Assembly: GCA_018968815.1 (NCBI GenBank)
Contig: JAGWZL010000001.1
Coordinates: forward strand, 61,178-125,177
Source: Verrucomicrobiota bacterium
GTDB lineage: Bacteria; Chlamydiota; Chlamydiia; Chlamydiales; SM23-39
Reading direction: 5' to 3'
DNA length: 64,000 bases
In this document: one piece after another, positions 11,870-62,760 of the stretch
Position numbering within the stretch: the first letter of the stretch is position 1
Layout: each line of letters opens with the position of its first letter
Program-made: the position numbers and the translations under genes
Notes under the pieces: generated by a model
Databases searched by the model: none
Told to the model about the DNA's origin: nothing
The model's input: the letters and a program-made list of their open reading frames with translations, nothing else

Positions 11870-11943
11870 GAGAGGATACGTTTATACAAAATTTTCTTTT
11901 TTATTTGCAAAAAAATTCATACTCTTGGAAAATTTTCCGTCAA

Positions 11944-12747: not shown

Positions 12748-12752
12748 GCAGG

Positions 12753-13959: not shown

Positions 13960-18784
<4,825 letters not shown>

Positions 18785-18857
18785 TGACAAAAATTGCTCC
18801 ACACAAATTTGTTTTTTTGATCTAATAGTTCCCCAAATTAAGAGGTGTCTACCATCG

Positions 18858-36550: not shown

Positions 36551-37948
36551 TTAGACCTCAATCTGAGGCCAAACAATCGCCTGTTTTCCAGCATGGCGGG
36601 CCAGCAAAGGCTCAATCTCCTCTTTGAGAAATCGACGTGTTTGCTCAGGCGCCAGGCCGATCAGTTTGATCGGGTCTAAGACGGAGGCCACCTCTTGGGG
36701 ATCCAACCCCAACTCTTTGGCAAAATGGGGGTTTTTTTGCTTCGCCAATTTGCGTAAGCGCTCATGCGTCGCTTGCCGGTCCGCCCCTTTCTTCACCGCA
36801 AGCATGAGCAGGTTTTCCATGGCCAAATGATGCATCTGCGCCTCTAGGTTTTCTTGGATGCGCGCCCGATCGATGTTCAGATGTTTGAATACATGGACGA
36901 GTAGATTGAGAATCGCGTCAGCCCCAAGAAACGCCTCCGGAATAGACAAGCGCCGATTCGATGAGTCGTCTAAACTCCTCTCCAGCCACTGCGTGGCTGC
37001 CGTATAAGCCGGGTTTTGGGAGAGCGACATCACAAAACGGGCCAGACCGCAAATCCGCTCAGCAAAAATCGGATTGCGCTTGTACGGCATCGCCGATGAG
37101 CCTATTTGCTCCTCTTCAAACCCCTCCAAAAGCTCCCCATCATGAGCCAACAGACGCAGATCGGTCGCCATTTTGTGACAGCTCGCAGCCAAAGAGGCTA
37201 ACGCATTGACAATGAATAGATCCCATTTGCGCGGATAGGTTTGCCCCGCAATGTGGAGGATCTTGGTAAAGCCAAAATCGGCGGCGATCGCTTTTTCGAG
37301 TAAGGCCACCTTGTTCGCGTCCCCATCAAAGAGCGCGAGAAAAGAACTCTGTGTGCCCGTGGCCCCCTTCACGCCCAAAAAAGGCAATGTGGCGATGAGC
37401 CGCTCAAACTCTTCGGCATCGAGGCGCAAATCTTGCAGCCACAGCGCAAAACGCTTGCCCACCGTTGTGGGTTGCGCAGGTTGAAAGTGAGTAAACCCCA
37501 AACAGGGCGTCGCCGATTCATGGGCCGCGAGCTTGGCCATGATGCGGATCACTTCAGTGAGCTTGCTGACAAGTAATTCGAGGCCAAATTTAAGTTGAAT
37601 GAGATCGGTGTTATCCGTGACAAACGTGGAGGTAGCGCCTAAATGGATGATCGGTTTCGCTTGGGGACACTGATCCCCAAAGGCATGAATATGCGCCATC
37701 ACGTCGTGCTTAAACTTTTTTTCATACGAGCGCGCAGCGGCAAAATCGATCCTTTCGACATTGTCTTCGAGTTCGGCCACCTGCTGATGCGTGATGGGTA
37801 AACCCAACTTCTGCTCGGCTTTGGCTAAAGAGACCCAGAGTTTGCGAAACGTGGAAATCTTGAAATGCGCCGAAAAAAGACGCGACATCTCAGGACTGCA
37901 GTAGCGCGCCGAGAAGGGAGACACGTATTCTTCATGGCGCGCCGACAT
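36551..37948 (-). CDS. purB: Adenylosuccinate lyase
   Basis: Fumarate-lyase signature 'GSSAMPYKRNP'. The N-terminal 'YVSPFSARYCSPEMSRLFS' is typical of PurB. Confidence 0.95.
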   Translation of the reverse strand: MSARHEEYVSPFSARYCSPEMSRLFSAHFKISTFRKLWVSLAKAEQKLGLPITHQQVAELEDNVERIDFAAARSYEKKFKHDVMAHIHAFGDQCPQAKPIIHLGATSTFVTDNTDLIQLKFGLELLVSKLTEVIRIMAKLAAHESATPCLGFTHFQPAQPTTVGKRFALWLQDLRLDAEEFERLIATLPFLGVKGATGTQSSFLALFDGDANKVALLEKAIAADFGFTKILHIAGQTYPRKWDLFIVNALASLAASCHKMATDLRLLAHDGELLEGFEEEQIGSSAMPYKRNPIFAERICGLARFVMSLSQNPAYTAATQWLERSLDDSSNRRLSIPEAFLGADAILNLLVHVFKHLNIDRARIQENLEAQMHHLAMENLLMLAVKKGADRQATHERLRKLAKQKNPHFAKELGLDPQEVASVLDPIKLIGLAPEQTRRFLKEEIEPLLARHAGKQAIVWPQIEV

Positions 37949-38697
37949 TACCGATCCAAAAGCGTTTCAATCTGACGAAGAAGACCCCGAATCGTCTGCT
38001 TCTCCTCTTCGCGAGGCATACAATTCCGATTCTTCACTAAATCGCGCGCCCGCTTCAGATGCAAAATCGCATTGTGCGTAAAATGAGGCAGCCGCTTGTC
38101 ATCTTCCGCTAACGGAAACTCCAGACGAATGAGTTTGAGAAGCTCCTCTTTAGGCTGCCCAGTGTAGTTTTTGACAATCTCTTCTTTCTTCTGAAAAGCC
38201 CCCACCCGGCTAGCCAGACTGTACACAGCTTGGCGCGGCATCTGATCGAGTTTCGGATGCAAGGTTTGCGGAAGAAGTGTGTAAAACTCATAATATTGTA
38301 AGAAATTATAAGGCGTTTGACGGTTGCCATAAGTAGCAAAGAGCCACGCTGTAAATGCGCCGTCTCGATACCGTTTCAAAATGTCTTGCGCCCGCTTAAT
38401 CCTCTCCCCATGCAAGATGACCGCCTGGTTCGTGATCGCCTTCACTTCCGATGTGATCGCCATCAAGGTTTTGAGATCGGCTTCCAGATCATCCGTCTCA
38501 TTCACCCGGAATGTGCGCAGAATATTCTCAATATCCGCTTTTTCCTTCTCGTTGAGCTGCGCTACACGAAAAACTCCAGAAAAACTCGAAAGCTCCCCGT
38601 TATTCGCCTTCTCAACCAACGCAGACATTTTTTCCTTTGCGTCCTTATTCTTGTTGAATCGCAAATGAAGAAGATCATTGAACTTTGACATCATCAA
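37948..38697 (-). CDS. pGP6-D-like protein (chromosomal paralog of the chlamydial plasmid protein)
   Basis: 'ITNQAVILHGERIKRAQDILK..FTAWL....TPYNFLQYYEFYTLLP' parallels the remembered pGP6-D/CT583 family pattern. It overlaps the ParA-like gene by 4 nt. Confidence 0.75.
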   Translation of the reverse strand: MMMSKFNDLLHLRFNKNKDAKEKMSALVEKANNGELSSFSGVFRVAQLNEKEKADIENILRTFRVNETDDLEADLKTLMAITSEVKAITNQAVILHGERIKRAQDILKRYRDGAFTAWLFATYGNRQTPYNFLQYYEFYTLLPQTLHPKLDQMPRQAVYSLASRVGAFQKKEEIVKNYTGQPKEELLKLIRLEFPLAEDDKRLPHFTHNAILHLKRARDLVKNRNCMPREEEKQTIRGLLRQIETLLDR

Positions 38698-39446
38698 ATC
38701 CTCGTAAGTATTTCCGACGTGAGATCCGTGTAATCTTTCGATGCTCGCGCTTGAGGCGCGGTCTCAAAAATCGGCTTTCCATAAATTGTCGCCTCAGATA
38801 CAGCGATATCGCGTCTCACTTTTGCATGCAAGAGTTTTCCTGGAAATGTTTGCTCAATCACCTTCAGAAAAGCATCATTGCTTTTGCCCCTCGGATTCCA
38901 AAATGAAAGAGCCACTCCTAACACTTTCGTCCCATGTCTTTCGGAAATATTGTTAATAAATAATGAAAGCCGCTGCAACCCTTTTACACTATAAAACTCC
39001 GGCGTGGCGCAAACAAGAGAATAATTCGATGCAATCAACGAAGATTCGGTCAACCAACAAAGCGACGGCGGCGTATCAATCAGCACAACGTCGTACGGCA
39101 AATCGCGTAAAATCTCTTTCAGCCTTTCATGCGAATACCGATCGGCTGCCAAAGAACCAGACACCTCAACGCGCTCCAGCCACGTATCGGCCGGAATAAT
39201 GTGCATATTTTCAATGCACGTGTTCAAAATCACCTCCTGAATTGGCTTTTCACCTTGTAAAACAGGAGCCATGCTATCTTGCTCATCTGGATCAAAACCC
39301 AAGCCCGTTGTCAAATTGGCCTGAGCATCAAAATCGATAAGCAAAACCCTCTTCTTATGAAACAGCGCAAGAGCAGAACCGATATGCAACGATGTGGAGG
39401 TTTTGGCTGTGCCTCCTTTGAAGCTGCTGATCGAAATGACTTTCAC
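38694..39446 (-). CDS. ParA/Soj-family ATPase (pGP5-D-like)
   Basis: Deviant Walker A 'SFKGGTAKTSTS', 'LLIDFDAQANLT', 'VLIDTPPS'. Confidence 0.9.
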   Translation of the reverse strand: MKVISISSFKGGTAKTSTSLHIGSALALFHKKRVLLIDFDAQANLTTGLGFDPDEQDSMAPVLQGEKPIQEVILNTCIENMHIIPADTWLERVEVSGSLAADRYSHERLKEILRDLPYDVVLIDTPPSLCWLTESSLIASNYSLVCATPEFYSVKGLQRLSLFINNISERHGTKVLGVALSFWNPRGKSNDAFLKVIEQTFPGKLLHAKVRRDIAVSEATIYGKPIFETAPQARASKDYTDLTSEILTRI

Positions 39447-39463
39447 ATCACACCTCGAAAAAG

Positions 39464-41386
39464 TTAAGGAGCTGTTGAAAATGGCGACATCAAAGCTCGT
39501 TCATCACGTTCTTTTATGACTTTAGCAAGAAAATTAGAAATGTCAATCTCTCCGTGCACCACATTGTCGCGCGTGCGAAGCGCCACGGTCCGATTTTCTA
39601 CCTCTTTGTCGCCCACAGTCAGCAAATAATTGGTTTTGCGAAGCTGCGCTTCACGCACCTTCTTTCCAACCGATTCATTCGATGCATCCACGTCGCAAAC
39701 AAGCCCATGCGCCTCGATTTTTTTCTTCAACTCCTGCGCATAAGGAATGTGCCGATCGGCCACGGTGGCAATCGCAATCTGATAAGGGCTCAACCAGAAC
39801 GGGAATTTTCCCGAAAAATGCTCGATGAGGATCCCAAAAAATCTCTCGATCGAACCGAAAATCGCCCGGTGCAGCATCACAGGCCGCTCGTGGCTTGCGC
39901 TACTTGCGACAAACTCGAGCTCAAATTTTTGCGGCAGCGACATGTCGAGCTGCACGGTTCCACATTGCCAATATCTTCCTAACGCATCGCGGATATGAAT
40001 GTCGATTTTTGGACCATAAAACGCGCCGTCGCCTTCGTTGATGCGATAACTGTGGCCCCAATCATCCAGCGCCCCCTTCAAGCCGTTGGTCGCATTGTCC
40101 CACTCTTCGTCAGAGCCAATCGTTTTCGATTTTTCAGGACGGGTGGACAGCTCTAACCGATAAGGCAGACCGAATGTCATGTAAATCTTATCCGCTAATT
40201 TCAAAATCTGGATAATCTCATCGCGGATCTGATCGGGACGCATAAAGAGGTGGGCGTCGTCTTGGTGGAAACTGCGCACGCGGAAAAGGCCGTTGAGCGC
40301 GCCCGACGCTTCAAAGCGATGCACATGCCCAATCTCTGCCACGCGCAAAGGCAATTCCCGATAGCTGTGGATCGCTGTTTTGTAATAGAGCATACAGCCA
40401 GGACAGTTCATCGGCTTAATCGCAAAATCGCGCTCCTCGACTTGCGAAGTGTACATGTTGTCTCGATAGTGATACCAGTGCCCAGATCTTTCCCAAAGTT
40501 CCTTGCTCATCATGGTGGGCGTTTTGATTTCAATATACCCCCCCTCTTTCAAGCACTCGCGCAAAAATTCAATCAGCCGGTTCCAGACAATCATCCCTTT
40601 TGGGAAAATAAACGGCATCCCAGGCGCCTCTTCTTTAAAGGCAAATAGATCTAAGGCAGGGCCTAAAACCTTGTGGTCCCGCTTCTTCGCCTCTTCGAGC
40701 AGCTGTAAATATTCTTTGAGCCGCTTTCTGTCGGGAAAGGAAATGGCATACACACGTGTGAGCATTTGCTTGGTGGAATCGCCGCGCCAATAGGCGCCCG
40801 ATGTCTTCATCACCTTAAACGCTTTGATTTTGCCAAGCGATGCGATGTGAGGACCGCGGCAAAGATCGAAAAATTCCCCTTGCCGATAGGCGGAAATCGG
40901 CGTCTCTGTAAAACTGTCGATCAATTCGCATTTATAAGGATTTTTTGAAAAAGCCGAGTGAGCCTCCGCTTTGTTCGCAAATTCCATCCTCTCCGTTTTG
41001 TAGTTTTCACTCAAAATCGCTTCGACCTCTTTTTCGATTTTGATAAAATCTTCGTCAGAAAGAGTCAGGTTGCCAAAATCATAATAAAAACCATTTTCAA
41101 TCGGAGGCCCAATCGTCGGCTGTGCAGAGGGCCAAAGACGCAAAATCGCCTGCGCCAATACGTGAGCTGAGGTGTGCCAAAACACCTCTTTCCCTTTCGG
41201 GTCGTCAAAATTCCAAAATTGAAGCTCATCCCCATCGACGAGCCGTGTGTTGAAATCGCGTAAAACGCCGTTCACGCTCACAGACACCGCCTGCTCGGGA
41301 GCTGTTAGATGGAGTTTTTCTGCAATTTCTTTGGGAGTCGCTCCCTCGGAACATTCATGGACTTGATGGTTCACTTTGATTTTCAT
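39464..41386 (-). CDS. thrS: Threonine--tRNA ligase
   Basis: TGS domain at the N-terminus, editing-domain 'HTSAHVLAQA', class II core 'FRVRSFHQDDAHLF', and an anticodon-binding C-terminus. Confidence 0.97.
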   Translation of the reverse strand: MKIKVNHQVHECSEGATPKEIAEKLHLTAPEQAVSVSVNGVLRDFNTRLVDGDELQFWNFDDPKGKEVFWHTSAHVLAQAILRLWPSAQPTIGPPIENGFYYDFGNLTLSDEDFIKIEKEVEAILSENYKTERMEFANKAEAHSAFSKNPYKCELIDSFTETPISAYRQGEFFDLCRGPHIASLGKIKAFKVMKTSGAYWRGDSTKQMLTRVYAISFPDRKRLKEYLQLLEEAKKRDHKVLGPALDLFAFKEEAPGMPFIFPKGMIVWNRLIEFLRECLKEGGYIEIKTPTMMSKELWERSGHWYHYRDNMYTSQVEERDFAIKPMNCPGCMLYYKTAIHSYRELPLRVAEIGHVHRFEASGALNGLFRVRSFHQDDAHLFMRPDQIRDEIIQILKLADKIYMTFGLPYRLELSTRPEKSKTIGSDEEWDNATNGLKGALDDWGHSYRINEGDGAFYGPKIDIHIRDALGRYWQCGTVQLDMSLPQKFELEFVASSASHERPVMLHRAIFGSIERFFGILIEHFSGKFPFWLSPYQIAIATVADRHIPYAQELKKKIEAHGLVCDVDASNESVGKKVREAQLRKTNYLLTVGDKEVENRTVALRTRDNVVHGEIDISNFLAKVIKERDERALMSPFSTAP

Positions 41387-41486: not shown

Positions 41487-44063
41487 ATGACTCAATTTCA
41501 AGAACTTTATTTACAGCGGTTGAAGGGACCTCTCTCGACTCTGCTGGATTTGGAGGCGGAGGCGCACGCATCGTTTCGGATCGAAAGGGGGGGAATCCAA
41601 GATTCTTTTCGGTATCGGTGCAAATATTTGGCGTTGCGCATCGCTGGGCTTTTGCTCGATGAGCAGGGCGAGATCAATCTGGGGGCGCTCGCGGAGCTCA
41701 CGCGCCTGCTTGAGCCGGGCCCGTATCCACTCGGCCCTGGCAGGGAGGGCGACGCCCTGATTTACGCGCATATTCACCGTTGTCTCAAACACCTTATAGA
41801 AAACAAAGCGGTGTGGCTTGCGATTCGGCGGTTTTCGTTGCCGCTTTGCCATAAAAAGGCTGCTAGAGTGATTCAGGAGACTCTTTGGCCGGAGCCGATT
41901 CGGACGCTTCAAACTGCGCATGTGCGCAAAGCGGTGTTAGCGGCTTGGCTCACATTGCTTCGGCAGACGACGGGGTCCTGTTTTGCGACGGCGCCTGCGA
42001 TTTTAGTGCAGCAAACCCATCCGCTTCAGTTTTTCAAGGACCTTTACGATCTTCTCAGCATTGGGCAGATGAAGCGGACGATGGGGGGGCGAGAGTTTTC
42101 GGTTCCTTTGAGTTTTAGCTCCGGATCGGGAGATTTGCAGCATCTTGTATCGGGTCCTTTTTTTGGCCTACTTGTGGCGCTCGAATCGGTCGGTGTCCAT
42201 CGACTCGATCCGCACTTTTGGGAATCGGGGCCCCAAACGGTGAGCGATTGCTTGCGAAAAATCTTGCTGGCAGCGGAAAGCCTCACGGAAGAGGATCTAC
42301 AAGATGAAGAGTATTTATCTCGCATTCAGATGACGCCGCTGCTTGCCAAACAGGGAGCGATGCATTACCAGAAGCCGAGCGCTCGGGCGCAGAAGGTCGC
42401 TGCATGGAAAGCAAAATATGAGCAAGCGTGCATGACTTTCAAAACGATCACGGAGTGCTCGTTATTGCGATCCTGGGAATATTCGATCGCCTCTTTGGCC
42501 GATGTGAAGATCGATTTTGCGAGATGGAACTTGTATATTGGATTGGGCCTTCATCCCGATCAGAAACAGGGAATCGGGGCCTTTTTATACGAATGGACCC
42601 AATCCCGTTTGCAACAATGCCACGAAGAGATACATCGTCTGGCTCACGAATATGAGCGCAATGCAAACGCCGTGCAGGCGATTGAAGTGATGATCCAATC
42701 GACCACTAGCGATGCGCGGCTGCATCAGTTGAAATCGGATTGGATGTCGCTCACTGCCTCGCTCAATACGATTGTAGAAATCAGGGATCAACAGATTGCA
42801 AAGGCTGAAGGGCTGACGAAGTTTTTTGCCTGGCTCATTGAGCGATACGATGAGAAATTGCAAACGTTTTTCCAAGAATTATTTGATCCTGCGTTGATCC
42901 AAGATGGCGCTCACATCCATGATGATAGTCCTGCCGGTTTTCGATTGGTGTACAAACATGGCAGGGCCGATGCTTCGCAATGGACCACGATCAACAACCG
43001 GGAAGAATACATTGAAGCGCTGCGCGATTTTTTCTCTCGCATCGAAACGGAGTTAGACCCTCCTGCCGATGTAGGGAAAGAAACATTGACGGCAGCCACG
43101 ACTGCGTTGATCCAGTTTATCCAAGAGGATGAGTTTTTCAATGGGGCGCTCACCCGTTCCAAACAACACGGAAGATTGTCTCCGTGGGATTACATTTCTG
43201 GGGGCACATTGCAAACGCTTCTCATGGCCTATTGCAATCGGGATCGTCCCTTTACCGAAGCCGCAGTGATCCCTCATTCGGAGGCGGAGCTGCTCCAATT
43301 TTTGGCCAGTCACCCGGGCCAAGACCCCGTTTTAATGCATTCGCCGACTCACGCGTTTATTTTCTATCCGCGGATGCTGGGGGGCAGGGCCCATGTGGCG
43401 CCTTTTTCCAGCCAACCGTGGGATGAACGGATGCAAGAGCACTTAGCGCACCGGATTAGCGAACGGCTTCCCGAAGAGGAAAGGGCTCTCTTCATTCACC
43501 TCTTGAGAAACGGCGACGCCTCTGCTTCGAATGGCGCTTTTAGGGCGAAGGTGATCGCCTCTCTCAGCCCGCGCATGAAAAACAAAGAGGCGCTCGTCGA
43601 TGCAGCGCTGTATGACCATGCACGGCTGTGGACGGCTGATGAGGCGCAAACCGCAATCGCCCAAATTTCCCAACAACTCGGGCAAAATATTCGAATCAAA
43701 CTAGAAGGGACATTTTTTGGGCCTATGGATGTATATAACCAAATCAAGGCAGCCATTTTGCAAGCGTCACAGAGTGTTTTTGCCTCTGTGGATTGGGATC
43801 AAAAGATCGCAAACGCCATGAGGAAAATCCACTTTTTGCCCGATGTGTTACTGTTTGGCGATAGCAATTGGTCTGGGTGGTTTTTTGGTTTTGTGCAGAA
43901 TCCTACCACGGGGGTTTTGGAACTGTGGCGGTTCAATCGAACGGCTACGCAAGGCTTCCCCATGCACGATTGGAAAGAATGGGTATCGCCCCACAATGTG
44001 TCAGCGTGGGTCTTGCTCTCTCAGCCTGCAGAATATGAGACTTCTTTATTCAGGGGGAAATAG
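41487..44063 (+). CDS. Large conserved hypothetical protein
   Basis: 858-aa uninterrupted ORF with no signal peptide. No family was recognised. Confidence 0.65.
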   Translation: MTQFQELYLQRLKGPLSTLLDLEAEAHASFRIERGGIQDSFRYRCKYLALRIAGLLLDEQGEINLGALAELTRLLEPGPYPLGPGREGDALIYAHIHRCLKHLIENKAVWLAIRRFSLPLCHKKAARVIQETLWPEPIRTLQTAHVRKAVLAAWLTLLRQTTGSCFATAPAILVQQTHPLQFFKDLYDLLSIGQMKRTMGGREFSVPLSFSSGSGDLQHLVSGPFFGLLVALESVGVHRLDPHFWESGPQTVSDCLRKILLAAESLTEEDLQDEEYLSRIQMTPLLAKQGAMHYQKPSARAQKVAAWKAKYEQACMTFKTITECSLLRSWEYSIASLADVKIDFARWNLYIGLGLHPDQKQGIGAFLYEWTQSRLQQCHEEIHRLAHEYERNANAVQAIEVMIQSTTSDARLHQLKSDWMSLTASLNTIVEIRDQQIAKAEGLTKFFAWLIERYDEKLQTFFQELFDPALIQDGAHIHDDSPAGFRLVYKHGRADASQWTTINNREEYIEALRDFFSRIETELDPPADVGKETLTAATTALIQFIQEDEFFNGALTRSKQHGRLSPWDYISGGTLQTLLMAYCNRDRPFTEAAVIPHSEAELLQFLASHPGQDPVLMHSPTHAFIFYPRMLGGRAHVAPFSSQPWDERMQEHLAHRISERLPEEERALFIHLLRNGDASASNGAFRAKVIASLSPRMKNKEALVDAALYDHARLWTADEAQTAIAQISQQLGQNIRIKLEGTFFGPMDVYNQIKAAILQASQSVFASVDWDQKIANAMRKIHFLPDVLLFGDSNWSGWFFGFVQNPTTGVLELWRFNRTATQGFPMHDWKEWVSPHNVSAWVLLSQPAEYETSLFRGK

Positions 44064-46523
44064 CTTTTTGAGTTGTTCCGAACAGGATTTCTCAAGGGCG
44101 GCCACCAATGTATCGATTTTGGCCACCAAGGGCGCGATGCTATCGAATTGTTCAGCTCGGGCACATTTTTGCATGTCCCAAAAAACCACTGCGAGATGCG
44201 GGCACCCCATGAGGCTACAGGAATTTGCGCACTGGCCGGCAATTTGGATGATTTGAGCGCTATTTTTTGAGTGGATGGCATGATACAGCTCCTTTTGGGA
44301 ACTCTTGAGTGTATCCAAATAAGCATCTAATAACTGCTTGCAAACCTGCAGATCTCCCTTCACAAGCTCTTTCAACATGACCAGATCCAGCGGGCAGATT
44401 TCACCCACAGCTCTTGACTCGACTTGTGGCACAATACCCTGTTTTTTGAAGGCTTTGGACAGCGTCGATTTGATCATGTCCAGCGTCACAGGTTTGATGA
44501 GAAAATCATCCATTCCACGGGCGAACGCTCGCTGTTTATCATGCTCGGAAAGCTGAGAGGCGGTTAAGGCAATGATCAGAGTGTGTTTGGTCGCTCCCTC
44601 CCGTTTTCGGATTTCTTCGGTGGCGGAATAGCCATCCCGATTCGGCATCAACAGATCCATTAAAATTAAATCGTAAGGTTTTTGGGCCACCATTTTGAGA
44701 ACTTCATCCCCGTCGGTCGCGAGGTCCGCTTGATAGCCAATATGTTCAAGCTGCAGCAAAATCACTCGGCCTGATATGGCATCATCTTCCGCTACAAGAA
44801 TTCTTTTGGCAGGATAAACCAAAACCTCTTCTTTGGGCAGAGGAGGTTCTTGAATGGCTTCGCTCCATCGAGCCAAAGGGATGGATGCCCAAAAGGTAGA
44901 TCCTACGCCCAGTTGACTACTGACGCCCAGCTCCCCTTGCATCAGGTCAATGAGATTTTTGGCAATCGAAAGACCCAGCCCCGAGCCATGCCCTAGGGTG
45001 GGATTGACTTGGGCAAACGGTACGAAAAGATTGGACAGACTGTCCTCTGAAATTCCGATCCCCGTATCGCTCACCTCGAGTTTCAATGTGAAGGAGGAGG
45101 CTGTTTGAGAGGAGACGGAAAGATGCAGGACCACTTCTCCTTTCTCTGTATATTTGAACGCATTGCTCAAAAAGTTCATCAAGATTTGGGTGAGCCGCCT
45201 CCTGTCGCCAATCGCCTTGGGCGGCACTTCAGGGTCGATGACCACTTTAAAAGAGAGATGTTTGTTTTTCGCGACGCTTTGAAAGGACGCTGCCGCTTGA
45301 TCGACAAAATCTGCAATGGAAAAGGAGCTTCTCGCAAGAACCACCTTCCTCGCCTCGATCGCAGAAATGTCAAGTACGTCATCGACCACCTTGGCTAGCG
45401 GATCTACGCTCTGCCCCAACAAGGCAGTCAGATTCTTCTGCTCCGCCGATAAAGGCGTTCTTTGCAGCATTTCGAGAGTGCCCAGAATCCCGACAAGAGG
45501 CGTTCGAATCTCATGGCTCAAATGCGCTAAAAAGCGGGTGCGGGAAAGCGCCGCTTGTAATGCGAGAGCGCCGACCGATTTAAAGGCGCCTATCGCTTGC
45601 TCCCTTTCAGCAATCGCAGCCGCCAACACCAATAACATCCACGATGTCAACCCAATAAATACTTGAAAAGAGGCCAGATCCTCCACCAAATTCGAGGTGC
45701 TGTAAGCATGCCCATGGGAAATGGCTAAGATCCCCGTGCACTCCATACATAAGATGATCACACTCATCCCATACTTTTGAAAACGAAGAGCTGCCCAAAT
45801 AAAGATAGGACTCGCAATATAGATATTGAAATGGAAAGGCGCAAGTATGGGATTACGATAAATGAATGTGAGCCATCCAAAAGGATTCCAGAATAAAGCG
45901 GTAAAGATCAATTCTGCGCTGATCACAAGCGCGATCCACTCCCATGCCTTTCTGTACACAGAAGGGCCGCCAGACCAGACAAGAATCACAGATCCCAGGA
46001 CTAACACCCCCGCAAGACGGCTCAGATGCCAGATTTGGGCGGCTGACAGCCACTGATCGCTTGGGATCAGATGGAACCACCAAAGCGTCGAGGTCCCTAT
46101 AAACGCCGCTACCAGCGTGCTGATGCCTGCAGCAAAAAGACCGTAAAAGATCACATCGGGCACTCGCTGTAAGCGCGGATTAAAAGAAACTCTTCGAAGT
46201 AAAAAAAGGGCAAGGGTGGGCTGCAAGGTATTGCCGATCGCAATGCCCAAAGCGCTATTCCAAGGCAGTGTGTGGATCAACCATTCTAAGCAAAAAGCGC
46301 TCAAGAAGAGGGCGGGCCACATCCGATAGCCCCAAAGAATCACGAAGGCGGTTGACAGGCCGGCGAGCAGTCCAAGAGGCGCGACGCTGTTGTCGATCAG
46401 TGGAATAAAAAAGAACGAGAGGATCCCAAGACCCAAATAAAGAGCAAAAAAGACCGCTCCTTTGGTCCAAAAAGATCTCAATGCAAGGGTCCACATATTT
46501 GTTCTTGTACTCTTTCCCCTCAT
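44046..46523 (-). CDS. Hybrid sensor histidine kinase (MASE1-like membrane domain, HisKA, HATPase, REC, degenerate HPt)
   Basis: About 8 N-terminal TM helices. H-box 'LSHEIRTPL', N-box 'LSNAFKYT', G-boxes 'DTGIGI' and 'GSGLGL'. REC 'ILVAEDD...LILMDLLMPNRDG'. The C-terminal helical domain 'IAGQCANSCSLMG' has Gly where the HPt His is expected. Confidence 0.9.
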   Translation of the reverse strand: MRGKSTRTNMWTLALRSFWTKGAVFFALYLGLGILSFFFIPLIDNSVAPLGLLAGLSTAFVILWGYRMWPALFLSAFCLEWLIHTLPWNSALGIAIGNTLQPTLALFLLRRVSFNPRLQRVPDVIFYGLFAAGISTLVAAFIGTSTLWWFHLIPSDQWLSAAQIWHLSRLAGVLVLGSVILVWSGGPSVYRKAWEWIALVISAELIFTALFWNPFGWLTFIYRNPILAPFHFNIYIASPIFIWAALRFQKYGMSVIILCMECTGILAISHGHAYSTSNLVEDLASFQVFIGLTSWMLLVLAAAIAEREQAIGAFKSVGALALQAALSRTRFLAHLSHEIRTPLVGILGTLEMLQRTPLSAEQKNLTALLGQSVDPLAKVVDDVLDISAIEARKVVLARSSFSIADFVDQAAASFQSVAKNKHLSFKVVIDPEVPPKAIGDRRRLTQILMNFLSNAFKYTEKGEVVLHLSVSSQTASSFTLKLEVSDTGIGISEDSLSNLFVPFAQVNPTLGHGSGLGLSIAKNLIDLMQGELGVSSQLGVGSTFWASIPLARWSEAIQEPPLPKEEVLVYPAKRILVAEDDAISGRVILLQLEHIGYQADLATDGDEVLKMVAQKPYDLILMDLLMPNRDGYSATEEIRKREGATKHTLIIALTASQLSEHDKQRAFARGMDDFLIKPVTLDMIKSTLSKAFKKQGIVPQVESRAVGEICPLDLVMLKELVKGDLQVCKQLLDAYLDTLKSSQKELYHAIHSKNSAQIIQIAGQCANSCSLMGCPHLAVVFWDMQKCARAEQFDSIAPLVAKIDTLVAALEKSCSEQLKKLFPPE

Positions 46524-46539
46524 TTTTTATAAGGCAAAT

Positions 46540-46818
46540 ATGATCCCAGAAGAATTAATGGAAGAATACCGCCGCAGCATCCCGGAGCGGCTCCAAGAGA
46601 TTGAACGGGTCATCCAAGATGTGAACGCCGATCCCACCTCCCAAGAAAAACTGGCCGCCTTGCGCTTCGCCGTCCATAAACTCGCAGGCAACTCCGGCAC
46701 ATTCGGCTATATGGAGGCCAGTCAACTGTGTCGGGACTTGGAACAGAAAATTTTGCAAAAGGCAGCCTTAGACTTAGGTTTATTTTATCAGCAATTAAAA
46801 AAGAGTTTTCACTCTTAA
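46540..46818 (+). CDS. Stand-alone histidine phosphotransfer (HPt) protein
   Basis: 'FAVHKLAGNSGTFG' is an intact HxxKG HPt motif. 92 aa from the ATG at 46540. The track start at 46462 is an unsupported extension. Confidence 0.8.
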   Translation: MIPEELMEEYRRSIPERLQEIERVIQDVNADPTSQEKLAALRFAVHKLAGNSGTFGYMEASQLCRDLEQKILQKAALDLGLFYQQLKKSFHS

Positions 46819-46827
46819 GCAGATTGA

Positions 46828-47640
46828 ATGTACATCTTCGTATTCCTCTCTTTCGCATTGAGCCTATTCGGGTTGGAAGTTCCTCATCCGTGGGTCGTCT
46901 ATTATGGCGATGCGGCCCAAGCGGAGGAATTGGCCCCTTTCAATCCCATCGTGCTACAACCTCACTCTGCTTTGGTTCGGGCGTTTGGGAAAAGGAAAAC
47001 CGTTCTCGGCTATTTCAATCTAGGCGAAATCGATCAGAGTGATCCGTTTTTTTCAAAGACTCAAGAAGAGGGGCTGCTGATTGAGGACAATCAAGAATGG
47101 CGCGGCAGTTGGAAGGTAGATATCCGCAATCCATTTTGGAAGCGCTATGTGCTCAAAACGGCGATCCCTGTCTTGCTGTCCCAAGGATTTACAGGGATTT
47201 TTCTCGACCAGGTCGATGTGTCGATCGATTTAGAAACTCGCAACCCCACACAGTTCAGCGGGATGAAAAAGGCCGCCATAGACCTCATCAGAGACATCCG
47301 AAAGTATTTTCCGAAAATCAAGCTGATGCTCAATCGCGGCTATGAGATTTTGCCCCAAATCGGACGATGGATCGATTATGAGCTCGCAGAAACGCTCTAT
47401 ACCTTCTACGATGTGAACACGCAAACCTATCAAGTGAGATCCAAAGAGGAGTACGATTGGCAGCTCCAACAGCTGCAAGCGGCTCACAAGCAATTCCCTC
47501 GGCTTGTGTTATTTTCTTTGGATTATTGGGATCCTACAGATCGAACCATGATCGACAAAATCTATGAGATTGAGCTCCAACATTTTCTCCGTCCGTATGT
47601 CGCGACCATTCACCTTGACAAAATCGTCTTGCCGCCATAG
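46828..47640 (+). CDS. pelA: PelA-like glycoside hydrolase (GH114/GH166-type TIM barrel), stand-alone
   Basis: Signal peptide 'MYIFVFLSFALSLFG'. 'VLGYFNLGEID', 'WKVDIRNPFWKRYV' and 'GFTGIFLDQVD' resemble the endo-alpha-1,4-polygalactosaminidase / PelA hydrolase domain. It is the first gene of the pel-like cluster. Confidence 0.7.
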   Translation: MYIFVFLSFALSLFGLEVPHPWVVYYGDAAQAEELAPFNPIVLQPHSALVRAFGKRKTVLGYFNLGEIDQSDPFFSKTQEEGLLIEDNQEWRGSWKVDIRNPFWKRYVLKTAIPVLLSQGFTGIFLDQVDVSIDLETRNPTQFSGMKKAAIDLIRDIRKYFPKIKLMLNRGYEILPQIGRWIDYELAETLYTFYDVNTQTYQVRSKEEYDWQLQQLQAAHKQFPRLVLFSLDYWDPTDRTMIDKIYEIELQHFLRPYVATIHLDKIVLPP

Positions 47641-47650
47641 ATAAACAAGT

Positions 47651-49804
47651 ATGTGGCGATCTCTGTGGATGGACTTTTTTGCAATATTGAGCTGCGCGCA
47701 AATTTGCACCGCAGAAATGCCGTTCCCAAGGCGGGTGATTTCTTTTTGGGACGGCAAAGCCGACAAATCGGCTGATGATTGCCTCGTTCATAAAACGTTA
47801 GAGATGCCGCTGAATCACCTCGGCATTGACGTCATGTATTCCGATATTCAAGAGCCGCTGCCCCCTCTTTCTCGAGAGGATGGGGTCCTCGGAGTCATTC
47901 TCTGTTTTCGAGACGAGACCAAACGGTGCCGTCCCATTGAGCTCATCGATTGGGCGATCGAGGCGATCGAGCTGGGCAAAAAGGTGCTCATTTTTCGCAA
48001 CGGGGGCTTTTTGGTCGATCAAAACGGCTTTTTCACGCCCATTGATGAGCAAAACCGTTTATTTGAAAGGCTTGGACTTGTCAACTCGGGCCGATGGGTC
48101 GATTACCCTTTTGATTACAAGGTGGTCTATAGCGACTCCGCTCTGATCCCTTTTGAAAGAAATTATTCAGACCCCTTGCCCGGTTTTTATCAGGCCCAAA
48201 ATTTAGGCGCAGCAGAATCCCTCCTGAAGGTCGCCATCCCGGAGCAAAAGGATTCTGAATCCGATTTAATCCTGGTGGGGCCTCATGGCGCCTACGTCGC
48301 GAGCTTATATGAGAATAACTATGAAGACGCAGCGGCGAATACCGATCCGCGAAGCCTAGGATGGCATCTCAACCCCTTCCTCTTTTTCGAAAAGGTGTTT
48401 GAGATCGGCGCGCCCCATCCAATCCCCGATGTGACCACATTAGCGGGAAGGCGCATTTTCTACTCGAGCTGCGATGGAGACAACTGGAAAGGGGCGACGA
48501 CGCTGGAGGACAATCCTGAACAAAATGTGTATTGCGCCGAAATTGTGTTGCAGCAGATCATTCGCCCCTATCCCCATCTTCCCATGTCTATGGGCATCAT
48601 CGCCGCTGTGTTAGATCCTGCATGGGTAGGCGATCCAAAAAGCCAACAAATCGCTCGAGAGTATCTGGCGCTGCCTCAAGTAGAAGCCGCTTCCCACTCG
48701 TATAGCCACCCGTTTGATTGGACTTTTTTTAAAACGGGAGGGCCCGAAAAGGAGATCAAATACCTTCCTCTTTACCCGTATGGCAGTTGGCAAAACAGCT
48801 ATTTAAGTTGGTTTAATGCTCGCCACAAAAACAAAGATTTTGGGGGAGAATCGCTTTCTTGGGGCTATGTCATCCCGAGAGCTTACGCCAATCAACCGTT
48901 TCATCTCGACCTCGAAATTTCTGGGGCCGCCTCTTACATCGATCAATTCGCCCCGCCTGACAATCAGGTGCATCTTTTGCTCTGGCCGGGCGATGGAAAG
49001 CCATGGGCAGAGCCTGTGGCTCTATGCCAAAAGGCTGGCCTAAAAAATCTAGGGGGAGGATTTGTCCGCTTTGATCCCGAATACCCGTCCAATCTCTTCG
49101 TCTATCCGATCGGTCGAAAACCGGGTGGATGGATCCAGCCCTACTCTTCCATGAGTGCAGAGAATTCCTACTCCGAAGGGTGGTCTTCCCGATTTTATGG
49201 ATTTCAATACCTGCCCGCCACCCTGCAAAACACCGAATCGCCTCGCCGCATTAAACCGATTCAACTCTTCTATCACAGCTACTCAGGCGAGTATTTAGCC
49301 AGCCTCAATGCAGTGTTGAAAAACATCGCAGCCATCCAAAAATTGCCCCACATCCCGATCCGAGCCAGCCGCTACTCCGATGTGGCAGAAGGATTTTACT
49401 CCACGGAGATTGTCGAAATAGGCCCGGCCCAATGGAAAATAAAAAATCGCAAGGGGTTGGAAACCGTTCGTTTCGATCATGTAGAAGAGATGAAAATCGA
49501 TTTTGCCCATTCAACAGGAGTGATCGGACAAACAGAACACCAAGGGTCTCTTTACGTCTATCTCGATGCGGCCGTAGATGAACCCATTTTGACTCTCGGA
49601 AATCAGGGGAGCTCTCATCCATACCTCATGGAAAGCAGCTGGGAAATTTGGAATCTTGTGCGCCATGAAGATGAGCTCGCATTCCAAACAAAAGGGTGGG
49701 GACCGCTCATCATGAAATGGAATGTGAATGGCCGTGTCCTCAGCATCGAGAGAGACGATCTTCCCAACAACCAAGAACTGGGATGGAAAGTGAAACTCGA
49801 ATGA
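47651..49804 (+). CDS. Putative polysaccharide deacetylase (CE4-like; PelA deacetylase-region equivalent)
   Basis: It has its own signal peptide ('FFAILSCAQICTA'). 'SSCDGDNW' and 'EAASHSYSHPFDW' resemble CE4 motifs 1 and 2. It is in a different frame from the hydrolase gene, 10 nt downstream. Confidence 0.55.
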   Translation: MWRSLWMDFFAILSCAQICTAEMPFPRRVISFWDGKADKSADDCLVHKTLEMPLNHLGIDVMYSDIQEPLPPLSREDGVLGVILCFRDETKRCRPIELIDWAIEAIELGKKVLIFRNGGFLVDQNGFFTPIDEQNRLFERLGLVNSGRWVDYPFDYKVVYSDSALIPFERNYSDPLPGFYQAQNLGAAESLLKVAIPEQKDSESDLILVGPHGAYVASLYENNYEDAAANTDPRSLGWHLNPFLFFEKVFEIGAPHPIPDVTTLAGRRIFYSSCDGDNWKGATTLEDNPEQNVYCAEIVLQQIIRPYPHLPMSMGIIAAVLDPAWVGDPKSQQIAREYLALPQVEAASHSYSHPFDWTFFKTGGPEKEIKYLPLYPYGSWQNSYLSWFNARHKNKDFGGESLSWGYVIPRAYANQPFHLDLEISGAASYIDQFAPPDNQVHLLLWPGDGKPWAEPVALCQKAGLKNLGGGFVRFDPEYPSNLFVYPIGRKPGGWIQPYSSMSAENSYSEGWSSRFYGFQYLPATLQNTESPRRIKPIQLFYHSYSGEYLASLNAVLKNIAAIQKLPHIPIRASRYSDVAEGFYSTEIVEIGPAQWKIKNRKGLETVRFDHVEEMKIDFAHSTGVIGQTEHQGSLYVYLDAAVDEPILTLGNQGSSHPYLMESSWEIWNLVRHEDELAFQTKGWGPLIMKWNVNGRVLSIERDDLPNNQELGWKVKLE

Positions 49805-62563: not shown

Positions 62564-62760
62564 TTTTCTATATGTAGCGCGAGACCACTTCTTGAGCAAG
62601 AAAAAATAGCTGTCCATAGGATGCTTGGGCTTAACCCCCCCCATTCCGCTCTAGGTTATTTGTAAGTCGTTGATTATTATTGAGAAGAGACAAAAACCAA
62701 GGGTTTGTCATATTATTGTTTCAATGCTGCCGTTATAGTTTCTGACGCATAAAATATCTG

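What the first reader, a model, noticed from the sequence alone, without database searches (positions are those of the whole stretch)
44046..46818. Hybrid kinase with a His-less pseudo-HPt next to a divergent stand-alone HPt, with a REC-only regulator at the far end of the pel operon
The 825-aa MASE1-like hybrid kinase ends in an HPt-like four-helix segment. Its expected phospho-accepting motif reads 'IAGQCANSCSLMG', with Gly in place of His. Seventeen nt away on the other strand, a 92-aa protein carries an intact 'VHKLAGNSGTFG'. Immediately after pelG, and overlapping it by 53 nt, lies a 129-aa single-domain response regulator (58831-59220). Together these form a complete HK(REC) to HPt to REC relay bracketing the pel genes. 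This suggests phosphorelay control of the polysaccharide pathway and a case of fused-domain decay with functional replacement in trans.
Basis: partly seen in the sequence, partly recalled or inferred. Interest (0 to 1): 0.55.

Follow-up and report, generated by a model that had tools for sequence, protein, structure and literature searches.

The report
Phosphorelay attached to a chlamydial Pel cluster
A sensor kinase with a dead phosphotransfer domain sits beside an intact stand-alone one and, with a small receiver protein, probably forms a phosphorelay on a Pel biofilm-sugar cluster that lacks its usual c-di-GMP sensor, hinting how such clusters are switched on.

Summary
The 825-aa kinase (44046-46523, minus strand) is MASE1-HisKA-HATPase-REC plus a C-terminal HPt homologue. 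In that domain Gly763 sits in the phospho-His column, and the hallmark Lys and Gly are also lost. A 36%-identical kinase with the same architecture keeps the His.

A 92-aa HPt with an intact His46 starts 16 nt away on the other strand. It is the first gene of the pel operon. A 129-aa receiver-only protein converges on pelG with a 53-nt overlap.

Two new points emerged. [quoted passage not shown] Second, in 7 other chlamydial/PVC pel clusters with short PelD, the same HPt and/or receiver families lie beside the cluster. They occur as separate genes, as HPt-REC fusions, or as a REC-HPt-sugar-dehydrogenase fusion. None is seen beside long-PelD clusters. Two more short-PelD clusters show none in their visible part. 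The receiver family also sits beside a different polysaccharide synthase.

Best reading: a His-Asp-His-Asp relay controls Pel synthesis where c-di-GMP sensing was lost. The kinase-to-HPt link and the post-translational output are inferred, not shown. I rate it a new variant of known kinds, of moderate to high interest.

The parts
44046..46523 (-). Hybrid histidine kinase, 825 aa: MASE1 membrane sensor (residues 25-307), HisKA with H-box His337, HATPase_c (439-551), receiver with Asp623 (575-687), and a C-terminal pseudo-HPt.
   Evidence: Pfam scores. Residue numbers. DTGIGI and GSGLGL (G1- and G2-box-like) and NFLSNAFKYT (N-box-like) motifs are readable in the translation; assigning them to those boxes is my reading.
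44049..44387 (-). Pseudo-HPt domain (about residues 713-825). Gly763 (codon 44235-44237) occupies the phospho-His column. The +3 Lys is Ala and the +4 Gly is Asn.
   Evidence: It scores 51.5 bits end to end against a profile built from 43 HPt tails of homologous kinases, with window sequences excluded. All hits of an exhaustive phmmer search that I aligned are HPt domains, and 15 of 16 keep the His. The AF2 model has pLDDT 84, and its top PDB fold matches are HPt domains such as HptB 7c1i (TM 0.81).
46540..46818 (+). Stand-alone HPt protein, 92 aa, with His46 (codon 46675-46677). It is the first gene of the pel operon; its stop codon lies 9 nt before the pelA-hydrolase ATG.
   Evidence: Pfam Hpt 48.8 bits. 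His46 aligns with the CheA P1 phospho-His. A single-sequence AF2 model gives a four-helix bundle. Family members sit beside pel in L009, L013, L043, L010 and L011.
46828..47640 (+). PelA hydrolase-type protein (270 aa), encoded separately from the rest of PelA.
   Evidence: Pfam Glyco_hydro_114. Homologues of about 50% identity occur in chlamydial genomes.
47651..49804 (+). 717-aa protein in the position of the remaining (deacetylase) part of PelA.
   Evidence: No Pfam hit. It is conserved in the same position in all related pel clusters.
49696..54121 (+). PelB-like proteins encoded as two genes: a TPR protein (49696-52491, 931 aa) and a 545-aa protein (52484-54121). The 545-aa protein matches the C-terminal part of single-gene PelB proteins.
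   Evidence: TPR hits. In proteobacterial loci one PelB of about 1460 aa is hit by both window proteins.
54118..55017 (+). Short PelD (299 aa): an N-terminal region that corresponds in P. aeruginosa PelD to the transmembrane helices, plus a GAF domain. It ends right after GAF and lacks the roughly 140-aa C-terminal domain of long PelD proteins.
   Evidence: Pfam GAF_3 at residues 173-298 of 299. The alignment with long chlamydial PelDs shows the missing C-terminus. pelE starts at 54987 at the earliest, so there is no room for a further domain.
54987..58883 (+). pelE (54987-55973), pelF glycosyltransferase (55970-57448) and pelG (57450-58883).
   Evidence: Pfam TPR; DUF3492 plus Glycos_transf_1; and PelG at 345 bits.
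58831..59220 (-). Receiver-only response regulator, 129 aa. It has Asp12/Asp13, phospho-acceptor Asp60 (codon 59041-59043), Ser89 and Lys111. It converges on pelG with a 53-nt 3' overlap.
   Evidence: Pfam Response_reg 71.8 bits. The listed residues are invariant in the family alignment. It is 58% identical to the receiver beside pelA in L007. An AAGGAAAG ribosome-binding site precedes the ATG.

Best explanation
The pel cluster of this uncultured chlamydia-like (PVC) bacterium carries a four-step His-Asp-His-Asp phosphorelay.

Proposed flow of phosphate:
1. The MASE1 hybrid kinase autophosphorylates on His337.
2. The phosphate passes to the kinase's own receiver, Asp623.
3. The kinase's fused HPt is dead (Gly763), so the phosphate must leave the protein. 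It goes to His46 of the stand-alone HPt, which is encoded head to head with the kinase as the first gene of the pel operon.
4. The HPt phosphorylates Asp60 of the receiver-only protein encoded at the other end of the cluster.

The receiver has no output domain, and PelD here lacks the c-di-GMP-binding GGDEF domain. The phosphorylated receiver therefore most likely acts by protein-protein contact on the PelDEFG synthase complex. In that model phosphorylation replaces c-di-GMP as the on-switch for Pel synthesis.

What is shown: the domain architectures, the His-to-Gly loss, the intact phospho-sites, the missing PelD domain, and the recurrent linkage and gene fusion of the HPt and REC families with pel.

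What is inferred: every phosphotransfer step, the kinase as the input, and the post-translational target.
For: 1. All four phospho-sites are present and the kinase shows the conserved ATP-binding-box motifs.

2. The fused HPt is a true HPt homologue and is predicted to fold as one, but it lacks the His, Lys and Gly of the HxxKG motif. P0258, which has the same architecture and is 36% identical, keeps 'VAHKCLGSSGTLGC'.

3. Gene order: kinase and HPt start 16 nt apart on opposite strands, and the HPt stop lies 9 nt before pelA.

4. Synteny in relatives. The pel-type REC (my profile score above 130) and/or pel-type HPt (score above 80 for six; 48 for the degenerate HPt-like half of the L126 fusion) lie beside pel in L007, L010/L015, L011, L013, L043, L046/L129 and L126. 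They also lie beside an orphan pelA in L009.

5. Gene fusions link the parts. There are HPt-REC fusions in L010, L009 and L126, a REC-HPt fusion in L049, a REC-HPt-UDP-sugar dehydrogenase fusion in L011, and a REC1-HPt-REC2 operon in L047.

6. Correlation with PelD length. Eight of 10 PVC-type clusters with short PelD carry the module in the visible DNA. None of 3 long-PelD chlamydial clusters and none of 24 long-PelD clusters from other phyla does. Fisher's exact test gives p=0.035 within PVC and about 1e-6 overall, without correction for phylogeny.

7. Where the REC family is not beside pel (L048, L049), it directly precedes a HEAT-repeat protein and a processive GT2 synthase with a QRTRW motif. 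That is another polysaccharide synthase.

8. Precedent: the single-domain regulator EpsW~P activates an EPS enzyme post-translationally in Myxococcus (PMC12802240). How GGDEF-less PelD systems are regulated is stated to be unknown (PMC12345266, PMC7112168).
Against: - No relative shows the MASE1 kinase beside pel. Relatives instead have a PAS kinase plus a separate REC1 (L015, L009, L048, L049), and the contig of P0258 has no pel genes.
- The kinase's receiver is not the orthologue of those REC1 proteins (low scores).
- Two short-PelD clusters (L127, L128) show no HPt or REC in the 10 kb upstream. Their downstream ends are not visible.
- The sample consists of metagenome fragments. The lineages are related, so the Fisher p-values overstate independence.
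- Nothing shows that the receiver contacts PelD, PelE, PelF or PelG. It could act on transcription through an unseen partner.
- Whether these genomes really lack c-di-GMP enzymes could not be checked. No GGDEF, EAL or PilZ domain was found among the window ORFs that were scanned, which were mostly those of at least 200 aa.
Confidence: 0.55

Rival explanations
1. The HPt and receiver do form a pel-linked relay, but the MASE1 kinase is only a neighbour. The real input would be a PAS kinase plus a separate REC1 elsewhere in the genome, as in relatives. The dead HPt of the MASE1 kinase would be an unrelated decay. Its receiver would act as a phosphate sink, or would feed the HPt only incidentally.
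For: Relatives pair the module with a PAS kinase and a stand-alone REC1 (L015, L009, L048, L049). In L007 and L046 only the receiver is beside pel, so relay parts can be encoded elsewhere. The closest full-length homologue of the kinase, P0258, lies on a contig without pel.
Against: No other kinase or receiver was found among the ORFs of the 64-kb window that were scanned. The kinase and HPt genes are head to head, 16 nt apart. A hybrid kinase whose own HPt is dead needs an external HPt to signal at all, and the adjacent one is the obvious candidate.
Confidence: 0.25
2. The relay is real but does not gate the Pel synthase directly. The receiver-only protein would act as a phosphate sink or connector, or would act through an unlinked transcription factor. 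Adjacency to pel would then reflect co-expression or transcriptional control only.
For: Single-domain receivers often act as sinks or connectors (general knowledge of two-component systems). No contact with Pel proteins was tested here. The same REC family sits beside a non-Pel synthase cluster, so PelD cannot be its universal target.
Against: The module correlates with loss of the PelD c-di-GMP domain. It is linked to two different synthase-type polysaccharide clusters. EpsW provides a precedent for direct action on an EPS enzyme (PMC12802240).
Confidence: 0.2
3. The His-less domain is not simply decayed. It would be a regulatory decoy that docks on the kinase's own receiver and competes with the stand-alone HPt, tuning phosphate flow in the way plant AHP6 does.
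For: The fold is predicted with high confidence (pLDDT above 90 over the core), and the domain scores 51.5 bits against an HPt profile. This suggests the domain is maintained rather than drifting freely.
Against: Only one lineage with this substitution is known, as near-identical copies in three assemblies. Purifying selection on the His-less form therefore cannot be assessed.
Confidence: 0.15
4. The fused domain still transfers phosphate through a non-canonical residue such as His776, His748 or His751, and the stand-alone HPt works in a parallel pathway.
For: Three other His residues exist in the tail.
Against: They lie at helix ends in the model, away from position 763. None is conserved in the 16 nearest HPt homologues. 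The Lys and Gly that flank the active His are also lost.
Confidence: 0.04

Closest known systems
Hybrid-kinase / stand-alone HPt / response-regulator relays (Vibrio LuxQ-LuxU-LuxO, Caulobacter ShkA-ShpA-TacA, Shewanella ArcS-HptA-ArcA, Pseudomonas hybrid kinases-HptB)
   Same: A kinase with a fused receiver passes phosphate to a separate four-helix HPt protein and then to a second receiver. HptB (PDB 7c1i) is among the best structural matches for both HPt domains here.
   Different: As far as I recall, those kinases simply lack an HPt. This one keeps a folded HPt homologue with the His replaced. The terminal receiver here has no output domain. The genes also flank a polysaccharide synthase cluster.
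Vibrio fischeri Syp regulation (RscS and HahK signal through the HPt domain of SypF, or through LuxU, to SypG/SypE)
   Same: Sensor kinases use an HPt supplied in trans to control a polysaccharide locus. The SypF HPt domain alone can complement a sypF deletion (PMC12369376).
   Different: The HPt used there is part of another kinase. The output, SypG, is a transcription activator. No His-less HPt is involved.
Plant pseudo-HPt proteins (Arabidopsis AHP6 type)
   Same: An HPt fold with the phospho-accepting His replaced.
   Different: AHP6 is a stand-alone protein with Asn in place of His, and it is a demonstrated inhibitor of cytokinin phosphorelay (my own knowledge, not checked here). Here the domain is fused to a bacterial kinase, carries Gly, and has no known role.
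PelD, the c-di-GMP receptor of the Pel system, and the GGDEF-less class IV PelD of streptococci
   Same: The core genes pelD, pelE, pelF and pelG are the same. Like streptococcal PelD, this PelD ends after the GAF domain and cannot bind c-di-GMP through a GGDEF I-site (PMC7112168, PMC12345266).
   Different: Streptococcal PelD carries an extra N-terminal degenerate SDR domain, and its regulation is unknown. Here the GGDEF-less PelD co-occurs with an HPt/receiver module. Chlamydial relatives with long PelD keep an RxxD motif ('LRTID'/'LRTVD') and lack the module.
Myxococcus xanthus EpsW, a single-domain response regulator of EPS synthesis
   Same: A receiver-only protein, when phosphorylated, turns on exopolysaccharide synthesis post-translationally by binding a biosynthetic enzyme (PMC12802240).
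   Different: EpsW acts on a phosphoglycosyl transferase of a Wzx/Wzy pathway and is fed by a CheA-like kinase. Pel is synthase-dependent, and no target is known here.

Membership tests
HPt domain (Pfam PF01627): kinase C-terminus | Sequence homology to HPt domains | tested here: met
   The Pfam match is below its gathering score (16.3 against 24.6 bits). However, the domain scores 51.5 bits end to end against an independent profile of HPt tails. An exhaustive phmmer search gives 18 hits with E<1e-3 (best 4.8e-9); the 16 that I aligned are all HPt domains.
HPt domain (Pfam PF01627): kinase C-terminus | Four-helix-bundle HPt fold | tested here: met
   AF2 gives pLDDT 84.1. Almost all of the top 26 Foldseek PDB matches are HPt domains, with TM up to 0.81. 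Caveat: the input alignment consisted of HPt-bearing kinases, which biases the model towards this fold.
HPt domain (Pfam PF01627): kinase C-terminus | Phospho-accepting His in the HxxKG motif on the second bundle helix | tested here: not met
   Gly763 is in the His column, Ala at +3 and Asn at +4. The domain is therefore a pseudo-HPt, not a functional member.
HPt domain (Pfam PF01627): 92-aa protein | Pfam score above threshold, with the His aligned to a known phospho-His | tested here: met
   48.8 bits against a gathering score of 24.6. His46 aligns with the phospho-His of T. maritima and E. coli CheA P1. The model is a four-helix bundle.
HPt domain (Pfam PF01627): 92-aa protein | Accepts phosphate from a receiver and donates it to another | not testable with these tools
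   This needs in vitro phosphotransfer assays.
Receiver domain (Pfam PF00072): 129-aa protein | Acidic pocket, phospho-Asp, Ser/Thr and Lys switch residues, and no output domain | tested here: met
   71.8 bits. D12, D13, D60, S89 and K111 are invariant across five family members. The protein ends 9 residues after the domain.
Hybrid (HK-REC) histidine kinase | H-box His, ATP-binding boxes, and a fused receiver with a phospho-Asp | tested here: met
   HisKA 62.6, HATPase_c 85.7 and Response_reg 76.6 bits. His337 and Asp623 are present. DTGIGI and GSGLGL (G1/G2-like) motifs are readable; their assignment to the boxes is my reading. Activity was not tested.
Multistep His-Asp-His-Asp phosphorelay | Four phospho-sites encoded, and parts functionally linked | tested here: met
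   His337, Asp623, His46 and Asp60 are present. The HPt and REC families are fused or adjacent in L009, L010, L011, L047, L049 and L126.
Multistep His-Asp-His-Asp phosphorelay | Phosphate actually flows from this kinase to this HPt to this receiver | not testable with these tools
   Inferred only from adjacency and from the dead fused HPt.
Pel exopolysaccharide system (pelABCDEFG type) | PelF glycosyltransferase, PelG, PelE, PelD with GAF, a PelA hydrolase-type protein and PelB TPR protein in one cluster | tested here: met
   Pfam PelG 345 bits; DUF3492 plus GT1 for PelF; GAF_3 for PelD; GH114 for PelA; TPR for PelB and PelE. Gene order is shared with 30 or more pel loci.
Pel exopolysaccharide system (pelABCDEFG type) | [quoted passage not shown] | tested here: not met
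   PelD is 299 aa and ends at the end of the GAF domain. The 140-aa C-terminal domain of long chlamydial PelDs is absent.
Pel exopolysaccharide system (pelABCDEFG type) | PelC lipoprotein gene | tested here: not met
   There is no room for a PelC-sized gene between the PelB genes and pelD (52484-54121 is followed directly by 54118-55017). The same holds in related loci. I did not search elsewhere in the genome.
Pel exopolysaccharide system (pelABCDEFG type) | Product is a partly deacetylated alpha-1,4-GalNAc polymer | not testable with these tools
   This needs biochemistry.

The most novel reading that the evidence does not exclude
In environmental chlamydiae whose PelD has lost the c-di-GMP-binding GGDEF domain, a phosphorylated single-domain receiver, fed by a dedicated HPt, takes over as the allosteric activator of the PelDEFG synthase complex. 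The same receiver family would also activate a GT2 synthase. This would be the first synthase-dependent exopolysaccharide system gated directly by a phosphorelay instead of a cyclic dinucleotide. It would also answer the open question of how GGDEF-less Pel systems are switched on.
Probability: 0.3. Interest if true: 0.8.

Novelty: new variant of a known kind. Interest (0 to 1): 0.6.

Why it matters
Pel is a widespread biofilm matrix polymer, and its only known post-translational switch is c-di-GMP binding to PelD. Papers on streptococcal Pel state that regulation of GGDEF-less PelD systems is still undetermined (PMC12345266, PMC7112168).

This locus and its relatives give a concrete, testable candidate: an HPt plus a receiver-only protein that travel with GGDEF-less pel clusters. 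The locus also shows an apparent natural intermediate in relay evolution. A complete unorthodox kinase appears to have been plugged into an existing HPt/REC module, and its own HPt then lost the phospho-His. My literature search turned up pseudo-HPt descriptions only in plants.

Finally, it documents pel clusters, and a small set of two-component genes tied to them, in uncultured chlamydia-like bacteria. I found no paper reporting this.

Tried and rejected
- phmmer of the kinase tail against PDB sequences gave no HPt hit, only chance matches to glutamate racemase and ACD11. Homology had to be shown with profiles and an exhaustive search instead.
- A word-indexed search with the stand-alone HPt returned only itself. 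Relatives were reached only through neighbours of pelA and through custom profiles.
- Word-indexed search with the full kinase found no orthologue, only a 100%-identical partial protein and generic hybrid kinases at 30-37% identity.
- Promoter and terminator scans around both gene junctions were at or below shuffle expectation and told nothing.
- Rfam found only one tRNA in the window.
- I tested whether the GT2 gene divergent from the receiver (59312-60385) is the same synthase that follows the receiver in L048 and L049. It is not (27% identity over 49 residues).
- I tested whether the receiver upstream of the intact-HPt homologue P0258 is of the pel type. It is generic (40 bits against 190-230 for true family members).
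- In the metagenome scan with the receiver alignment, only 5 of 80 returned loci were true family members. The rest were generic receivers with no pel genes.
- The reading that the stand-alone HPt arose to replace the decayed one was rejected. The HPt family is present beside pel in relatives that lack this kinase.
- L008 showed only an isolated pelA-type pair and was uninformative.


Full report
**What is in the sequence**

The region holds three two-component genes arranged around a pel cluster.

- ORF 44046-46523 (minus strand, 825 aa) is a hybrid histidine kinase. Pfam finds MASE1 (60 bits), HisKA (63), HATPase_c (86) and Response_reg (77). It also gives a sub-threshold Hpt match over residues 730-811 that spans profile positions 1-82 of 84 (16.3 bits; gathering score 24.6).
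- The H-box His is residue 337 and the receiver Asp is residue 623.
- Sixteen nucleotides from its start codon, on the other strand, ORF 46540-46818 encodes a 92-aa HPt protein (Pfam 48.8 bits). Its His46 aligns with the phosphorylated His of CheA P1 domains.
- The stop codon of this HPt gene lies 9 nt before the first pel gene, so the HPt gene heads the pel operon.
- At the far end, ORF 58831-59220 (minus strand, 129 aa) is a receiver-only protein (71.8 bits) with all catalytic residues. It converges on pelG, and the two 3' ends overlap by 53 nt.

**The kinase tail is a decayed HPt**

- I built a profile from 43 HPt tails of homologous hybrid kinases, leaving out both window proteins. The tail aligns to it end to end at 51.5 bits.
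- In that alignment 'AHkLKGss..lGa' lies over 'IAGQCANSCSLMGC'. His becomes Gly763, the +3 Lys becomes Ala, and the +4 Gly becomes Asn.
- An exhaustive phmmer search of 1.84 billion representative proteins gave 18 hits below E=1e-3 (best 4.8e-9). All 16 that I aligned are HPt domains. Fifteen keep the His and one has Asn.
- The nearest subfamily reads 'HKCxGSSxxxGC'. One member, P0258, is a 794-aa MASE1-HisKA-HATPase-REC-HPt protein, 36% identical to the window kinase over its full length, with the His intact.
- An AlphaFold2 model of the tail has pLDDT 84, with the core above 90. It is a helical bundle with residue 763 in mid-helix.
- The best PDB fold matches of this model are nearly all HPt domains, including the Shewanella kinase HPt 3myf, HptB 7c1i (TM 0.81), BarA, Ypd1 and AHP2. 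The input alignment was made of HPt-bearing kinases, which favours this fold.
- The other His residues of the tail lie at helix ends and are not conserved.

The domain is therefore an HPt by descent and by predicted fold, but it fails the defining phospho-His test. It is a pseudo-HPt, seen so far in this one lineage only. Near-identical copies occur in three assemblies.

**The pel cluster has a PelD without its c-di-GMP domain**

- Genes 46828-58883 encode a PelA hydrolase-type protein, a 717-aa protein in the PelA-deacetylase position, a PelB TPR protein, a 545-aa PelB C-terminal-like protein, PelD, PelE, PelF and PelG.
- PelD is 299 aa and stops at the end of its GAF domain (Pfam GAF_3, residues 173-298).
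- Chlamydial relatives with 459-465-aa PelD are 41-42% identical over this part. They then continue for about 140 residues that include an RxxD motif.
- In P. aeruginosa and B. cereus that C-terminal degenerate GGDEF domain binds c-di-GMP and is needed for Pel synthesis.
- A GGDEF-less PelD is known in streptococci, where the mode of regulation is stated to be undetermined (PMC7112168, PMC12345266).

**Relatives**

Neighbours (UPF0137/pGP6-D-like and ParA-like genes) and the closest pel clusters (Parachlamydiaceae, Chlamydiales and Chlamydiota genomes, one with a Chlam_OMP gene) place the organism among chlamydia-like PVC bacteria. NCBI labels it 'Verrucomicrobia bacterium'.

I collected pel loci in three ways: through homologues of the PelA hydrolase, through a scan of species-representative genomes with a PelD alignment, and through a metagenome scan with a receiver alignment. 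I annotated them with profiles of the pel-type receiver and pel-type HPt.

PVC-type clusters with short PelD (299-316 aa) that carry these families next to the cluster:

| Locus | What lies beside the cluster |
|---|---|
| L007, L046/L129 | Receiver only, divergent from pelA (58% identical to the window receiver) |
| L010/L015 | A 239-aa HPt-REC fusion upstream; a PAS kinase and a second receiver after pelG |
| L126 | A 237-aa HPt-like-REC fusion |
| L011 | A receiver upstream; a 687-aa REC-HPt-UDP-sugar dehydrogenase fusion after pelG |
| L013 | A stand-alone HPt upstream |
| L043 | A receiver upstream and an HPt downstream |
| L009 | An orphan pelA gene flanked by an HPt-REC fusion, a stand-alone HPt, a PAS kinase and a receiver |

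- Two short-PelD clusters (L127, L128) show none of these genes in the 10 kb upstream. Their downstream ends are cut off.
- Three chlamydial clusters with long PelD, and 24 long-PelD clusters from other phyla, carry none.
- That is 8 of 10 against 0 of 27. Fisher's exact test gives p about 1e-6 overall and 0.035 within PVC alone, neither corrected for shared ancestry.

**Fusions and other contexts**

- The four modules (kinase, REC1, HPt, REC2) recur in different fusion states: [HK][REC1][HPt-REC2], [HK][REC1-HPt][REC2], [REC1][HPt][REC2], [REC1-HPt-dehydrogenase][REC2], and here [HK-REC1-pseudoHPt][HPt][REC2]. This is the classical gene-fusion argument that the parts work together as one His-Asp-His-Asp relay.
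- In L048 and L049 the pel-type receiver is not beside pel. It directly precedes a HEAT-repeat protein, a processive GT2 synthase with a QRTRW motif, and an epimerase, with the kinase and REC1/HPt genes nearby. The receiver family is therefore tied to synthase-type polysaccharide clusters in general.
- The fused HPt halves in L009 and L126 keep the His but have lost the flanking Lys and Gly. L009 also has a canonical stand-alone HPt, so weakening of a redundant HPt copy recurs in this module.

**Most likely mechanism**

- The MASE1 kinase senses a membrane-associated signal and autophosphorylates His337.
- The phosphate moves to Asp623.
- The fused HPt cannot accept it, so it passes to His46 of the adjacent stand-alone HPt.
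- The HPt phosphorylates Asp60 of the receiver-only protein.
- Lacking an output domain, the receiver acts by binding a partner. Given the missing PelD domain, the most economical partner is the PelDEFG complex.
- The single-domain regulator EpsW, which activates an EPS enzyme directly in Myxococcus, is a precedent (PMC12802240).

Shown here: the architectures, the substitutions, the linkage, the fusions and the correlation with PelD length. Inferred: every phosphotransfer step, the identity of the input kinase, and the target. I put about 0.85 on 'the HPt and receiver form a pel-linked relay', about 0.6 on 'this kinase feeds it', and about 0.3-0.35 on 'the receiver gates the synthase directly'.

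**Rivals**

- The main rival is that the kinase is a bystander. Relatives use a PAS kinase with a separate REC1. The MASE1 kinase's receiver is not their orthologue. Its intact-HPt homologue P0258 lies on a contig without pel genes.
- Against this, no other kinase or receiver was found among the window ORFs that were scanned. The kinase and HPt genes are head to head. A hybrid kinase with a dead HPt needs an external HPt to signal.
- A second rival is that the receiver is a sink or acts through transcription.
- A third is that the pseudo-HPt is a maintained decoy, like plant AHP6. This is compatible with the main model.
- Use of a non-canonical His is unlikely.

**Comparison with known systems and novelty**

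- Hybrid kinase to stand-alone HPt to regulator relays are well known (LuxU, ShpA, HptA, HptB).
- In Vibrio fischeri, kinases borrow the HPt domain of SypF or LuxU to control a polysaccharide locus (PMC12369376).
- My literature search turned up pseudo-HPt descriptions only in plants.
- GGDEF-less PelD is known in streptococci.
- The combination appears to be unreported: a folded but His-less HPt fused to a bacterial kinase beside the HPt it presumably uses, and a recurrent HPt/receiver module on GGDEF-less pel clusters of chlamydia-like bacteria. Searches found no paper linking PelD or pel operons with Chlamydiae.
- I classify it as a new variant of known kinds.

**Limits**

- The relatives are metagenome fragments, some with frameshifts (L043, L033).
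- Whole genomes could not be checked for c-di-GMP enzymes or for further HPt genes.

Noticed in passing
window 13960-18620 (minus strand), with 9726-13943 and 18609-20051: Three tandem paralogous collagen-triple-helix-repeat proteins (504, 515 and 520 aa; Pfam Collagen 109-133 bits) coincide with the GC bump to 0.56-0.59. They are flanked by GT92/GT2-type glycosyltransferase genes. This suggests glycosylated collagen-like surface fibres.
   Followed up: partly
L011:14881-16944 (Parachlamydiaceae genome, just after pelG): A single 687-aa ORF fuses a receiver, a pel-type HPt and a complete UDP-glucose/GDP-mannose dehydrogenase. In L009 a stand-alone HPt gene directly precedes the same type of dehydrogenase gene. 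The relay may therefore also touch nucleotide-sugar supply.
   Followed up: partly
L048:6128-9895 and L049:4003-6751: The pel-type receiver directly precedes a HEAT-repeat protein and a processive GT2 synthase with a QRTRW motif. The two synthases are 53% identical to each other. In L048 an epimerase follows. This is a second, non-Pel polysaccharide cluster carrying the same regulator family.
   Followed up: partly
window 46828-54121: In this clade PelA is encoded as two genes (a 270-aa hydrolase type and a 717-aa remainder). In the window and its PVC-type relatives PelB is also encoded as two genes (a 931-aa TPR protein and a 545-aa protein). No PelC-sized gene lies between PelB and PelD.
   Followed up: partly
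L029:13317-13691 (Acetobacteraceae MAG): An alphaproteobacterial pel cluster with a short PelD (334 aa) has an unrelated 124-aa receiver-only gene converging on pelG, the same layout as in the window. This is a single case. L036, also with short PelD, shows no such gene.
   Followed up: partly
L009:9188-9928 and L126:9218-9931: The HPt halves of these HPt-REC fusions keep the His but have degenerate motifs ('VHRVVVSSKMYG', 'LHNFSQEMDLFG'). L009 also has a canonical stand-alone HPt. Weakening of a redundant HPt copy may be recurrent in this module.
   Followed up: no
window 36551-41386 and L001: NCBI labels the source 'Verrucomicrobia bacterium'. However, neighbouring genes (a UPF0137/pGP6-D-like gene and a ParA-like gene) and all the closest pel clusters are chlamydial. 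The window's genome was not retrieved from the species-representative collection.
   Followed up: partly
window 41487-44063 (plus strand): An 858-aa ORF with no Pfam match converges on the kinase gene with an 18-nt 3' overlap. Convergent 3' overlaps thus occur at both ends of the kinase-pel-receiver block.
   Followed up: no
window 59312-62644: Beyond the receiver lie a GT2 glycosyltransferase, a type I phosphodiesterase/nucleotide pyrophosphatase-family protein and, on the minus strand, an NAD-dependent epimerase. The epimerase could be a PelX-like UDP-GlcNAc 4-epimerase. I did not test this.
   Followed up: no
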